Positions 35,739 to 38,700 of a stretch of 64,000 nucleotides of DNA are shown in pieces (within the stretch, counting starts at the first letter, position 1; each line of letters starts with the position of its first letter). Location: the NCBI RefSeq assembly GCF_057098645.1, contig NZ_CM169472.1; one strand, written 5' to 3'. Made by a program: the position numbers.

Positions 35739-38700
35739 TAACGAAAGTATTTTAGCGGGCATGAAAATGGCAAATAACGGTCAAACATCGTGGCGTTGAC
35801 ATCTGAGCCGGACTGGTTCTACGTGGTTGTGCTTGCCGGACAGTCCAACGGCATGGCCTACGGTGAAGGGCTTCCGTTACCGGATTCTTACGATGCTCCG
35901 GATCCGCGCATTAAACAGCTGGCGCGCCGCAGCACGGTAACTCCGGGTGGAGAGAGTTGTACGTATAACGACATCATTCCGGCTGACCACTGCCTGCATG
36001 ATGTGCAGGATATGAGTACGCTGAATCATCCGAAGGCAGACCTGAGCAAAGGGCAGTACGGCTGTGTCGGCCAGGGCTTACATATTGCCAAAAAACTGCT
36101 TCCGTATATCCCGAATAACGCGGGGATCCTGCTGGTACCATGCTGTCGTGGTGGTTCGGCATTTACCCAGGGCGCGGAGGGGACATTCAGCGAGTCCACG
36201 GGGGCCAGTCAGGATTCGGCACGCTGGGGGGTGGGCAAGCCGTTATATCAGGATCTGATTTCCCGCACAAAAGCGGCATTGCAGAAAAATCCCAAAAACG
36301 TTCTGCTGGCCGTCTGCTGGATGCAGGGTGAGTTTGACATGAGCGCCGCCACCCACGCACAGCAACCTGCGCTGTTTACAGCCATGCTGACACAGTTTCG
36401 TGCTGACCTCTCCGTGTTTAACGCGCAGTGCCATGGTGGCAGCGCTGCAGATGTGCCGTGGATTTGTGGTGACACGACGTATTACTGGAAAAATACATAC
36501 GCTACCCAGTACGACACCGTGTACGGCGGGTATAAAAACAGGGAGAGTGAGGGCGTTTATTTTGTGCCCTTCATGACAGACGGTAACGGCGTCAATACCG
36601 CCACTAACGCGCCGGCAGAAGATCCGGATATTCCGGCATCAGGATATTACGGTGCGGCATCGAGAACGAATGGAAACCAGGTATCATCAAACCGCCCGAC
36701 ACATTTCAGTTCATGGGCGCGCAGGAGCATTATTCCGGATCGTCTGGCAACCGCTATTCTGAACGCAGCCGGGCGCACCTCAGCCTTCATCAGTGGTAAG
36801 GCACCGGAAATCAAACCCTCGCCCGGCGGCAACACGCCATCGGGTCCGTCTGCAGATACGTCCGTTCGCACAATCTCCCTGCTGCCGGCAGCCGGAGAGG
36901 CTGCTGCGCAGGGCTGGAGCATTAAGGATGGCGGAATTCAGTTGTCAGATGGTGTATTTAAGATCACCAAGCAGAGCAATAAAACCTGGTCCCTGACGCA
37001 TCCGGTGGATGACGCAATTACCCTGCTGACACAGGGCGGCAGACTGACCTGTAAGTTCCGCCTGTCAGGCGCACTGACCAACAATCAGTTCGGGCTGGGG
37101 ATTTATCTGTATACGGATGCTCCCGTTCCTGATGGTGTGGCGATGACGGGTACCGGTAATCCGTTCCTGATGTCGTACTTCACTCAGACCACTGACGGCA
37201 GAGTGAATCTGATGCATCACAGGAAAGCCGGAAACACGAAGCTGGGGGAGTTCGGCGATTACGGTAACGACTGGCAGACGCTGGAGCTGGTGTTCACCGC
37301 CGGCAGTGCCACGGTTACTCCGAAACTGAATGGAGTGGCTGGCCCGGCATTCCAGGTTATAAAAGACAGTCTGACACTGGGACTGAATGCGCTGACGCTG
37401 ACGGATGTTACAAAAAATGCAGCGTATGGCGTTGAGATAGAAAGTCTGGTGCTGGAGATAAATGCACCGGCAGCATAATAAAAAAAGAGCCAGCGACTGA
37501 CCTGAAAGAAGACGCTGGCTAAAAGGCCTTATATGTTTGTAGAGACTTATTTTTCACAGACAGCAATGATGCCTGTCAATATATTATCAATATGCGGATT
37601 GTTTCAGTTACAGATGCTTTATTAAGGAAAAAAACAGCCAGCACTGACTTTCGGTGGAGAGGTGCTGGCTCAGAAGGATAGTTGGATTTCACATGATACT
37701 TATGCCTGGCGGTATATTTTCTGACAGACAGTGACGGGTGTTGTCAAGATATTGTGTCATTTATAACCTGAATCAGGGGGGGGCCGGAATGTTATCTGGC
37801 ATTTTTAGCAGAGCCTGAATGCCATAATCACGGCTCCCGGAGTTGGCCGTCAGTGGGTGACACTGGCGGCTTTTTTGTTTTTCTTTACTTTCATTTTCTG
37901 TCGGCGGTGACGGAGACATACATCAGATGGAAAAAATCACAACAGGTGTGTCATACACCACGTCAGCGGTGGGGACGGGATACTGGTTACTGCAGCTGCT
38001 GGACAAAGTCTCTCCGTCCCAGTGGGTGGCAATAGGTGTGCTGGGAAGTCTGCTGTTTGGCCTGCTGACGTATCTGACTAACCTGTATTTCAAAATCAGA
38101 GAGGACCGTCGTAAGGTGGCGCGGGGAGAGTAGTCGATGAATAAACAATACGAACTGGTTGTAAAATGAATATTTCTAACTGAAAAAACGTTCCATGAGG
38201 TAAGAAAAGGTCACAGGCAATCAATAACAGGACGTGATGAAAGACCCTTGCATTTGTGCGCTTTCTCTTTAGATAGCAGCAGATACTGAAAATCTGAGTT
38301 GTCGGGGAGTCAGGGATACAGCTGTGCAAGAGTTGGTCATTGTGATTCCATTGAAATCCTGTATGCCATGAAGGGCAGGATTTTATGGCTACCTGAGCTT
38401 TGGTGATAGTAAGTTGAAAATTCGCATTTTTTGCTGACATGCGTAACGAGAATCCCATAAACAGGGAGGACTTAATTCTTCATTAACCCATGCGTTGATA
38501 TTATGTTTCAGCCGTTGAAGCATCAGCGGTGTTAATGTTGTGGTAATAATATCCAGCGTTTTATGTGAGATCTTACCGTAAGGGTCTGCAAGAATGCTGC
38601 TTGTTGCTTCGTTATTATCTGCCATCAGAAGAAGTAACTCTGATTTAACGTTTTCTGTCATTAGTTGTAAAAATCTTCTGCGCAAACTTTCTTTACTGTT

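What the first reader, a model, noticed from the sequence alone, without database searches (positions are those of the whole stretch)
37487..37926. Tandem hairpin-containing repeat pair and a G8 tract upstream of the holin gene
Two imperfect copies of about 140 bp each start with an 8-9 bp stem-loop and share a conserved core. They lie in the 450-bp gap between the esterase gene and the holin and are not explained by any ORF. They may be duplicated late regulatory elements or small RNA genes.
Basis: seen in the sequence. Interest (0 to 1): 0.5.

Follow-up and report, generated by a model that had tools for sequence, protein, structure and literature searches.

The report
Tandem PasA-family prophage small RNA genes
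The repeat pair between the prophage esterase and holin genes is real, but it is two already-described Hfq-binding small RNA genes (PasA and its neighbour EcOnc51/52) read on the opposite strand, so it is essentially known biology.

Summary
The 448-bp gap between the esterase pseudogene (ends 37478) and the class II holin (starts 37927) holds two tandem units of about 148 bp (37480-37627 and 37628-37775). Each has an 8-9 bp hairpin and a shared core.

These are small RNA genes, but on the minus strand, convergent with the late operon. The hairpins are their Rho-independent terminators, so they mark the 3' ends and not the starts.

- **Unit 2 is pasA.** The published northern probe matches 25/25 at 37637-37661. 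A covariance model built only from PasA/PasC of other genomes scores 98.7 bits on 37712->37628 (-).
- **Unit 1 is a diverged paralogue.** The same model gives 32.3 bits, E 6e-5, on 37559->37480 (-). After correcting for a Sakai coordinate shift, both published Hfq-CRAC peaks EcOnc51 and EcOnc52 fall on it. Its terminator also ends the 236-nt minor PasA isoform.
- **PasC-type loci** carry one hybrid unit.
- **The G8 tract** is a length-variable homopolymer. It sits at the base of a + strand hairpin that precedes a strong + strand terminator 55 nt before the holin start.

Verdict: already known. The only small new point is that the locus is an old tandem duplication, which the 2026 survey did not count. 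Interest is low.

The parts
37628..37712 (-). Unit 2 RNA: pasA, probably the 'PasA-2' type variant. 85 nt, running from 5' CCGCCAGG to the U7 tail.
   Evidence: The covariance model R1, built from foreign PasA/PasC only, gives 98.7 bits, E 8e-19, full length. The PasA northern probe is exact at 37637-37661. The E2348/69 PasA coordinates come from PMC8550237 Table S6.
37636..37670 (-). pasA Rho-independent terminator. The 9-bp stem is 37636-37644 paired with 37662-37670, with a 17-nt loop. The U7 tail is 37634->37628 on the minus strand. The published seed GCCAGCACCU is the 5' arm of the stem in the RNA.
   Evidence: Sequence, fold, stem covariation, phage 434 annotation, seed from PMC8550237 Fig. 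S5.
37716..37775 (-). Nearly invariant promoter block of unit 2. It holds a perfect -35 TTGACA (37747->37742), then 17 nt, then TCAGAA (or TGT-CAGAAA as an extended -10), which places +1 at the reported 5' end 37712. A weaker upstream alternative is CTGATT-17-AATATC.
   Evidence: Read from the sequence. Only four variable columns in this block across 7 loci, while the RNA 5' body varies much more. Promoter use is inferred, not shown.
37480..37559 (-). Unit 1 RNA: the esterase-proximal paralogue. It corresponds to the Hfq-CRAC peaks EcOnc51/EcOnc52 of Sakai and to the 3' part of the 236-nt minor PasA isoform.
   Evidence: R1 gives 32.3 bits, E 6e-5, full-length alignment. The same hit occurs in Sakai Sp12 and Sp4, phage 434, E2348 PP2 and a plasmid. 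EcOnc51/52 coordinates are and the coordinate-shift anchors. RIL-seq chimeras at 743267-743294 (-) are.
37488..37520 (-). Unit 1 Rho-independent terminator. The 8-bp stem is 37488-37495 paired with 37513-37520, with a 17-nt loop. The U7 tail is 37486->37480 and abuts the esterase stop codon.
   Evidence: (I5); phage 434 annotation.
37546..37610 (-). Candidate promoter block of unit 1, paralogous to 37716-37775. It holds -35 TTGACA (37580->37575), then 18-19 nt, then TGT-GAAAAA. The alternative is CTGAAA-18-TATATT (37607->37578).
   Evidence: Sequence, scan hit. The segment 37546-37581 is unchanged in the 93%-identical plasmid copy. Inferred only.
37776..37783 (.). G8 homopolymer. It forms the outer 5' arm of the + strand hairpin and its length is polymorphic.
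   Evidence: Homologous loci read GGGGAGG, GGGGGTGG, G6, G9A and GGGGTTGG. The partner CGGCTCCC is invariant, so several variants break the outer pairs.
37779..37838 (+). Long + strand hairpin. The inner stem CTGGCATT/AATGCCA(T) is invariant.
   Evidence: For the fold of 37776-37885: MFE -47.5 kcal/mol, z -3.9, 0 of 200 shuffles fold as well.
37845..37885 (+). Strong + strand intrinsic terminator: an 11-bp stem followed by T6GT5, ending 42 nt (stem 55 nt) upstream of the holin ATG.
   Evidence: Scan, fold. It is annotated as a + strand terminator in phage 434.
37912..37929 (+). Holin ribosome-binding site GGAG (37912-37915) and the ATG start codon (37927-37929).
   Evidence: Pfam Phage_holin_2_1, E 1e-32.
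37446..37456 (+). CTGGTGCTGGA inside the esterase 3' coding end. It is identical to the PasA target motif instance that RIL-seq reported in esterase E2348C_1246.
   Evidence: PMC8550237 Table S7; sequence.

Best explanation
The gap holds two tandem, paralogous small RNA genes on the minus strand, convergent with the phage late operon.

**What is there**
- Each unit consists of a conserved promoter block, a short and more variable 5' body, and a GC-rich hairpin plus U7 that terminates transcription and (inferred from the family) binds Hfq.
- Unit 2 (37712->37628) is pasA. Unit 1 (about 37559->37480) is its diverged neighbour, known from EHEC as the Hfq-bound RNA EcOnc51/52.
- Read-through of the first terminator to the second gives the 236-nt minor PasA form reported in EPEC.

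**How it works**
- In the lysogen the late operon is silent and these RNAs are made. They act in trans, with Hfq, on core and accessory mRNAs.
- The seed overlaps the 5' arm of the terminator stem: GCCAGCACCU in PasA and GCCAGCGUCU in unit 1. The two units therefore probably have different targets.
- Downstream, on the + strand, a hairpin and a strong terminator lie just before the holin. This most likely stops transcription that is not Q-modified from reaching the lysis genes.
- The G8 tract is a slippage-prone run at the foot of that hairpin, with no conserved role.

**Shown versus inferred**
- Shown here: the repeat, the strand, family membership, stem covariation and synteny.
- Taken from papers: expression, Hfq dependence, RNA sizes and RIL-seq partners, measured on homologous or identical sequences.
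- Inferred: which promoter is used, whether unit 1 is transcribed independently, and the insulating role of the + strand terminator.
For: - **PasA coordinates and probe.** They come from PMC8550237 Table S6. The probe is exact at 37637-37661 and the 236-nt isoform aligns over 37701->37477.
- **Independent model test.** Model R1, built without the window, hits both units on the minus strand, with E 8e-19 and 6e-5. It gives the same pair in Sakai Sp12, phage 434, E2348 PP2 and O145 RM9872.
- **Identity to an experimentally studied locus.** The Sakai Sp12 intergenic region is identical to the window over the stretch aligned (window 37465-37800) except in the G tract.
- **Hfq binding of unit 1.** EcOnc51 and EcOnc52 are Hfq-CRAC peaks of 77 and 78 nt with predicted Rho-independent terminators. 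With the v1->v2 shifts measured at AsxR, AgvB and the EcOnc05 probe, both fall on unit 1.
- **RIL-seq.** The region between pasA and the esterase (minus strand) behaves as the sRNA partner: its RNA2 fraction is 1.0, with 5 interactions.
- **Stem covariation.** Two pairs change on both sides, and 95% of cells are paired against 21-49% when the partner is slid.
- **Annotation and synteny.** Phage 434 annotates two minus-strand terminators and one + strand terminator. The published synteny esterase-pasA/pasC-holin is described in Zhu et al. 2026.
- **+ strand element.** Its fold has z -3.9.
Against: - Rfam 15 has no family for this region, with no hit at E<=1. Membership therefore rests on my own model and on the papers.
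- No expression data exist for this particular genome.
- The predicted -10 elements are weak (TCAGAA, GAAAAA). Zhu et al. state that the PasA 5' end is made by cleavage of a longer transcript, so the promoter assignment is uncertain.
- Whole-RNA folds of the two sRNAs are not unusually stable (z -0.5 and -1.8). Only the terminator is well supported.
- Sp4 and Sp12 have identical unit 1 sequences, so CRAC reads cannot show which copy is expressed.
- The drop from esterase to holin RNA in EPEC is only about 3-fold per nucleotide, and it rests on very low counts.
Confidence: 0.85

Rival explanations
1. Only unit 2 is a gene. Unit 1 is a decayed duplicate that survives as a second, back-up terminator for pasA. 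It is seen only as the 3' end of the 236-nt read-through isoform and of fragments processed from it.
For: - Pearl Mizrahi et al. merged the pasA-esterase intergenic entry with PasA and reported a 236-nt minor form ending at the unit 1 terminator.
- Unit 1 scores only 32 bits against the family model, and its 5' body is 47-53% identical to PasA.
- Its promoter spacing (18-19 nt) is worse than that of unit 2.
Against: - The CRAC peaks are discrete 77-78-nt units ending at the unit 1 terminator.
- The -35 TTGACA and the adjoining block are retained in unit 1, and also in the plasmid copy that lacks unit 2.
- Sakai Sp4 and more than 100 plasmid places keep unit 1 without unit 2.
- The unit 1 terminator stem keeps pairing through a compensatory change relative to PasA.
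Confidence: 0.35
2. The repeats are + strand cis-elements of the late operon, such as duplicated late promoters, antitermination sites or terminators that control the holin.
For: - They lie in the late transcript just upstream of the lysis genes.
- + strand RNA across this region exists in EPEC, as a RIL-seq fragment at 743494-743512 (+).
- The hairpins also form in the + strand RNA.
Against: - No T-run follows either hairpin on the + strand.
- The U.G variant would be a C.A mismatch in + strand RNA.
- The known stable, Hfq-bound RNAs are on the minus strand.
- PasC-type and D1-type loci function with one unit, and the holin-proximal 150 bp is conserved independently of the repeats.
Confidence: 0.05
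3. The pair acts mainly in cis as antisense RNAs to the late mRNA, comparable to lambda OOP against cII. Pairing with the esterase-holin spacer would trigger RNase III cleavage or transcriptional interference and so tune lysis.
For: - The orientation is convergent and the RNAs are fully complementary to the late transcript.
- RIL-seq chimeras link PasA with the 3' end of both esterase mRNAs.
- The arrangement is tightly linked to the holin in all 698 genomes that carry it.
Against: - No experiment addresses this.
- Most PasA RIL-seq partners are trans-encoded core genes.
- Q-modified polymerase is resistant to terminators.
- Unit 1 persists on plasmids without any holin.
Confidence: 0.12

Closest known systems
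PasA sRNA of EPEC E2348/69 (Pearl Mizrahi et al. 2021, PMC8550237; Zhu, Shabalina & Storz 2026 preprint)
   Same: - The position is the same: between the SASA esterase and the class II holin, antisense to both.
- The 3' 47 nt are the same apart from one base, including the seed GCCAGCACCU and the terminator.
- The length is 85 nt, and the second terminator lies about 150 nt further on.
   Different: The first ~40 nt differ at about 11 positions. This matches the published description of the common 'PasA-2' variant. I could not verify the variant name, because the published alignments are images.
EcOnc51 / EcOnc52 (Tree et al. 2014, PMC4104026, Table S2)
   Same: Both are Hfq-crosslinked, terminator-bearing RNAs of 77-78 nt. 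After coordinate correction they coincide with unit 1, whose sequence in Sakai Sp12 and Sp4 is identical to the window.
   Different: They were listed as 'orphan Hfq binding sites' without northern validation or functional study. Later they were cited as PasA homologues, whereas they map to the neighbouring paralogue.
PasC sRNA (E2348/69 prophage PP5; phage 2B8)
   Same: It belongs to the same family and occupies the same locus. It ends directly at the esterase stop codon, as unit 1 does.
   Different: PasC loci have a single unit. Its 5' half resembles unit 2 (79-82%) and its 3' half resembles unit 1 (82%). This suggests recombination between the two units.
AgvB / AsxR anti-sRNAs (Rfam RF02702, RF02703)
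   Same: They are short Hfq-binding prophage sRNAs, antisense to the late region, with conserved 3' terminators and variable 5' parts.
   Different: They occupy a different intergenic site (between the moron and the esterase) and have a different sequence. There is no Rfam match here.
Tandem duplicated sRNAs such as OmrA/OmrB and PrrF1/PrrF2
   Same: Two adjacent paralogous sRNA genes, each with its own terminator, plus a read-through product spanning both.
   Different: Those pairs are chromosomal and nearly identical in their seeds. Here the units are far more diverged and phage-borne. Independent transcription of unit 1 is not proven.

Membership tests
PasA/PasC prophage sRNA family | Sequence and structure similarity to the E2348/69 PasA/PasC RNAs | tested here: met
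   Model R1, built from four foreign members, gives 98.7 bits (unit 2) and 32.3 bits, E 6e-5 (unit 1), both full length on the minus strand. The PasA probe matches 25/25.
PasA/PasC prophage sRNA family | Location between the sialate O-acetylesterase (SASA) gene and the class II holin of a lambdoid prophage, on the opposite strand | tested here: met
   Pfam finds SASA/DUF6645 and Phage_holin_2_1 in the flanking ORFs. The synteny is as and as described.
PasA/PasC prophage sRNA family | 3' stem-loop followed by a U-tract (intrinsic terminator and likely Hfq site) | tested here: met
   Both units have an 8-9 bp GC-rich stem plus U7. Two stem pairs show compensatory changes.
PasA/PasC prophage sRNA family | Conserved PasA seed GCCAGCACCU | tested here: met
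   It is identical in unit 2. Unit 1 has GCCAGCGUCU, the same as PasC at these positions, so the feature is met for unit 2 only.
PasA/PasC prophage sRNA family | Expression as a discrete Hfq-stabilised RNA | not testable with these tools
   This is known only from papers: the northern blot and RIL-seq in E2348/69 and Hfq-CRAC in Sakai on sequence identical to unit 1.
AgvB/AsxR anti-sRNAs (Rfam RF02702/RF02703) | Match to the Rfam covariance models | tested here: not met
   There is no hit at E<=1 in 36500-39000. The same models do find AgvB and AsxR in Sakai control loci.
STnc100/PasD | Match to Rfam RF02076 | tested here: not met
   It is absent from the finding's region. A true copy lies upstream at 33080-33270 with 138 bits.
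Rho-independent terminator | GC-rich hairpin immediately followed by a U-run on the transcribed strand | tested here: met
   On the minus strand this holds for both repeat hairpins. On the + strand it holds for 37845-37885.

The most novel reading that the evidence does not exclude
The locus is an ancient tandem duplication. It produced two independently transcribed PasA-family sRNAs with different seeds, and unequal recombination between the two units produced the single-unit PasC and D1-type alleles. In addition, the convergent sRNA pair together with the + strand terminator may act in cis to keep the holin silent in lysogens or to tune lysis after induction.
Probability: 0.2. Interest if true: 0.45.

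Novelty: already known. Interest (0 to 1): 0.22.

Why it matters
PasA-family RNAs are among the most abundant Hfq partners in EPEC and EHEC. They contact virulence transcripts (LEE, bfp), yet their function is still unknown.

Two points from this work help anyone who follows them up. First, every 'pasA locus' of this type carries a second, diverged paralogue with a different seed. Second, the EHEC entries EcOnc51/52 are that paralogue and not PasA itself. Knock-outs and target searches should treat the two units separately.

For the genome scan itself, this finding can be filed as explained.

Tried and rejected
- **Rfam.** A scan of the region at E<=1 found nothing. The families are simply not in Rfam.
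- **Consensus terminator scan.** It missed the unit 2 terminator because its loop is 17 nt.
- **First mapping of EcOnc51/52.** I first mapped EcOnc51 to unit 2 using RefSeq v2 coordinates. I rejected this after measuring a shift of about +140 bp between Sakai genome versions at AsxR and AgvB, and about 0-14 bp at Sp4.
- **Covariation in the + strand element.** This was impossible to test: all 2845 copies are at least 95% identical.
- **Coding explanation.** I considered the ORFs of 30-60 aa in the gap, including the 48-aa minus-strand ORF at 37773-37919 that one phage record may annotate as 'conserved hypothetical protein' (one search lists that CDS under the match; its coordinates were not checked). 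I did not pursue them: they have no Pfam support, and G-tract length changes alter that ORF's end.
- **Other promoter types.** SigmaE or sigmaS readings of the conserved CTGTCTGT(C/G)A(G/A)AAAAT block gave no convincing match.
- **Gapped unit alignment.** The global alignment of the two units chose a shifted register. The units differ by a 15-nt indel flanked by ATA, so there are two plausible registers.
- **EcOnc47.** This Sp15 entry turned out to be unrelated; it lies next to dinI.
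Full report
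**Context.** The window is part of a lambdoid prophage of a pathogenic-type E. coli.

- The same 3.6 kb is 99.3-99.6% identical in O145 and other STEC genomes.
- The gene order is Q, three tRNAs, an STnc100/PasD-like sRNA, the SASA esterase, the gap under study, the class II holin and the lysozyme. This is the order annotated in O145 RM9872, phage 434, E2348/69 PP2 and Sakai Sp12.
- Pfam confirms the esterase (SASA + DUF6645), the P21-type holin and the lysozyme.
- In the window the esterase is a 5'-truncated pseudogene. An IS21-family element (istA/istB, 33772-35741) sits in it, and homology to intact esterases starts at about 35800.

- Two hairpins with 8-9 bp stems and 17-nt loops are each preceded by A7. 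They lie 148 bp apart, at 37488-37520 and 37636-37670.
- A shared core (CAGACAG...TGTCAA.ATATT) follows each.
- The two 149-nt units align with a score about 11 sd above shuffles.
- The A-run/stem motif occurs exactly only at these two places in 64 kb.
- The G8 run is at 37776-37783.

**The strand is the minus strand.**

- On the + strand the hairpins are preceded by A7 and followed by TAAAAGG or TCAGAAGG. On the minus strand they are therefore classical intrinsic terminators (hairpin + U7).
- The curated phage 434 record, 95% identical here, annotates both as minus-strand terminators.
- Across nine variants of the 3' module the stem keeps pairing in 95% of cells, against 21-49% when the partner is slid. 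Two pairs change on both sides (C-G/U-A and G-C/A-U).
- A plasmid copy has U.G, which is a pair only in the minus-strand RNA.

**Identity of unit 2.**

- Pearl Mizrahi et al. (PMC8550237, Table S6) defined PasA in E2348/69 at NC_011601 743499->743415 (-). It is 85 nt, with a minor 236-nt form ending at 743264, and lies between the esterase E2348C_0688 and the holin E2348C_0689.
- I fetched that locus. The intergenic regions align end to end.
- The PasA northern probe occurs exactly at window 37637-37661, and the 236-nt form aligns over 37701->37477.
- A covariance model built only from PasA/PasC of other genomes (E2348 PasA, strain D1, E2348 PasC, strain 2022H048) scores 98.7 bits, E 8e-19, over its full length on 37712->37628 (-).
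- The 3' 47 nt, including the published seed GCCAGCACCU, are identical apart from one base. The 5' ~40 nt differ at about 11 positions.
- This fits the description of the common PasA-2 variant by Zhu, Shabalina and Storz (bioRxiv 10.64898/2026.05.13.724894). I could not check the name itself.

**Identity of unit 1.**

- The same model hits 37559->37480 (-) at 32.3 bits, E 6e-5, again over its full length.
- The same second hit appears in Sakai Sp12, phage 434, E2348 PP2 and O145 RM9872. It appears alone in Sakai Sp4, where IS629 replaces unit 2, and on the plasmid pRM10386-2.
- Tree et al. (PMC4104026, Table S2) list two Hfq-CRAC peaks with predicted Rho-independent terminators: EcOnc51 (Sp12, + strand, 2237479-2237555) and EcOnc52 (Sp4, - strand, 1181998-1182075).
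- Those coordinates refer to the older Sakai sequence, so I measured the offset to the current record.
  - It is about +135 to +146 at AsxR and AgvB (Rfam hits against published peaks).
  - It is about 117-142 at EcOnc04 in Sp11.
  - It is about 0-14 at Sp4 (EcOnc05 probe).
- With these offsets both peaks, 77 and 78 nt long, fall on unit 1 (v2 2237604-2237683 and 1182010-1182089), not on PasA.
- RIL-seq in EPEC also shows the stretch between pasA and the esterase on the minus strand behaving as an sRNA partner. It is always RNA2, has five interactions, and includes chimeras with escD at 743267-743294.
- Unit 1 is thus a known Hfq-bound RNA. It has been treated either as an orphan peak or as the tail of PasA.

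**Relationship of the units and PasC.**

- PasC-type loci (E2348 PP5, phage 2B8, strain 2022H048) and the strain D1 locus have only one unit.
- PasC resembles unit 2 in its 5' half (79-82%, against 61% to unit 1). It resembles unit 1 in its 3' half (82%, against 68-70%).
- The D1 allele joins the esterase stop directly to a PasA-like hairpin.
- The simplest reading is an old tandem duplication followed by deletions through recombination between the units. This is inferred.
- Zhu et al. state that pasA copies are not products of tandem duplication, because copies detectable by BLAST are at least 22 kb apart. The diverged unit 1 was evidently not counted.

**Promoters (inferred).**

- The 60 bp upstream of PasA (37716-37775) is nearly invariant (four variable columns) in seven loci, while the RNA 5' body varies much more.
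- It contains a perfect TTGACA (37747->37742), then 17 nt, then TCAGAA (or TGT-CAGAAA). This puts +1 at the reported 5' end, 37712.
- Unit 1 has the paralogous TTGACA (37580->37575) with a spacer one or two nt longer.
- A second candidate lies upstream in each unit: CTGAAA-18-TATATT in unit 1, found by the scan.
- Zhu et al. regard the PasA 5' end as processed, so the choice between these candidates is open.

**The rest of the gap.**

- 37776-37885 folds on the + strand into a long hairpin plus an 11-bp terminator hairpin with a T-run (-47.5 kcal/mol, z -3.9). The terminator stem ends 55 nt before the holin ATG.
- Phage 434 annotates it as a + strand terminator.
- The element is at least 95% identical in all 698 of 5426 complete E. 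coli genomes that carry it, so covariation cannot be assessed.
- The G tract forms the outer arm of the first hairpin. Its length and sequence vary among loci (G6 to G9A, GGGGAGG, GGGGTTGG) without compensation. I read it as a slippage-prone homopolymer without a conserved role.
- A role for the terminator in shielding the lysis genes from non-antiterminated transcription is plausible. In EPEC RNA-seq the esterase has a baseMean of 102 and the holin 3.5, about 3-fold per nucleotide on very low counts. This role is not shown.

**Comparison and verdict.**

- The finding is real and correctly flagged as non-coding, repeated and hairpin-bearing.
- It is not a new element. Unit 2 is PasA, unit 1 is EcOnc51/52, and the locus type is described in three papers.
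- It is not AgvB/AsxR or STnc100, as tested with Rfam.
- The modest additions here are the explicit tandem paralogy, the reassignment of EcOnc51/52 to unit 1, and the hybrid nature of PasC.
- The biological function of the family remains unknown in the literature.

Noticed in passing
window 33772-35741 (and about 33660-35800): An IS21-family element (istA 390 aa, istB 266 aa) is inserted in the 5' part of the SASA esterase gene. The 562-aa 'esterase' ORF starting with GTG at 35790 is therefore a truncated pseudogene, since intact homologues are 616 aa.
   Followed up: partly
window 32754-33270: Three tRNA genes (32754-33000) are followed by an STnc100/PasD-like sRNA (33080-33270, 138 bits). 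This is the published pasD-esterase-pasA arrangement, here split by the IS.
   Followed up: partly
window 38134-38820: Between the holin and the lysozyme lies a 690-bp AT-rich insert with minus-strand ORFs (for example 38389-38703, 104 aa) that have no Pfam match. Many related prophages carry a ydfR-family gene on the + strand at this position. The insert looks like a moron of unknown function.
   Followed up: partly
window 39670-40602: An IS3-family (IS629-like) transposase lies on the minus strand with its ALIL frameshift pseudoknot (40486-40602). It sits about 300 bp downstream of the lysozyme, so the spanin genes may be disrupted.
   Followed up: no
window 18550-18601 and 27854-28028: Rfam finds DicF (76.9 bits, minus strand) and a sok antitoxin RNA (107 bits, + strand) elsewhere in the prophage.
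   Followed up: no
L006 (plasmid pRM10386-2, NZ_CP028124.1 12678-12828): Unit 1 alone, together with the last bases of the esterase gene, is present at 93% identity on EHEC virulence-type plasmids between IS fragments. The E. coli search found 108 plasmid places.
   Followed up: partly
Sakai NC_002695.2 versus the coordinates in Tree et al. 2014: Published EcOnc coordinates are offset from the current RefSeq record by about 0-14 bp at 1.18 Mb and about 117-146 bp from 1.27 to 2.19 Mb. Naive look-ups therefore land on the wrong element.
   Followed up: yes
window 37446-37456: The esterase 3' coding end contains CTGGTGCTGGA. This is the exact 11-mer reported as a PasA RIL-seq target site in an EPEC esterase mRNA, and it copies the 3' arm of the PasA terminator stem.
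   Followed up: partly
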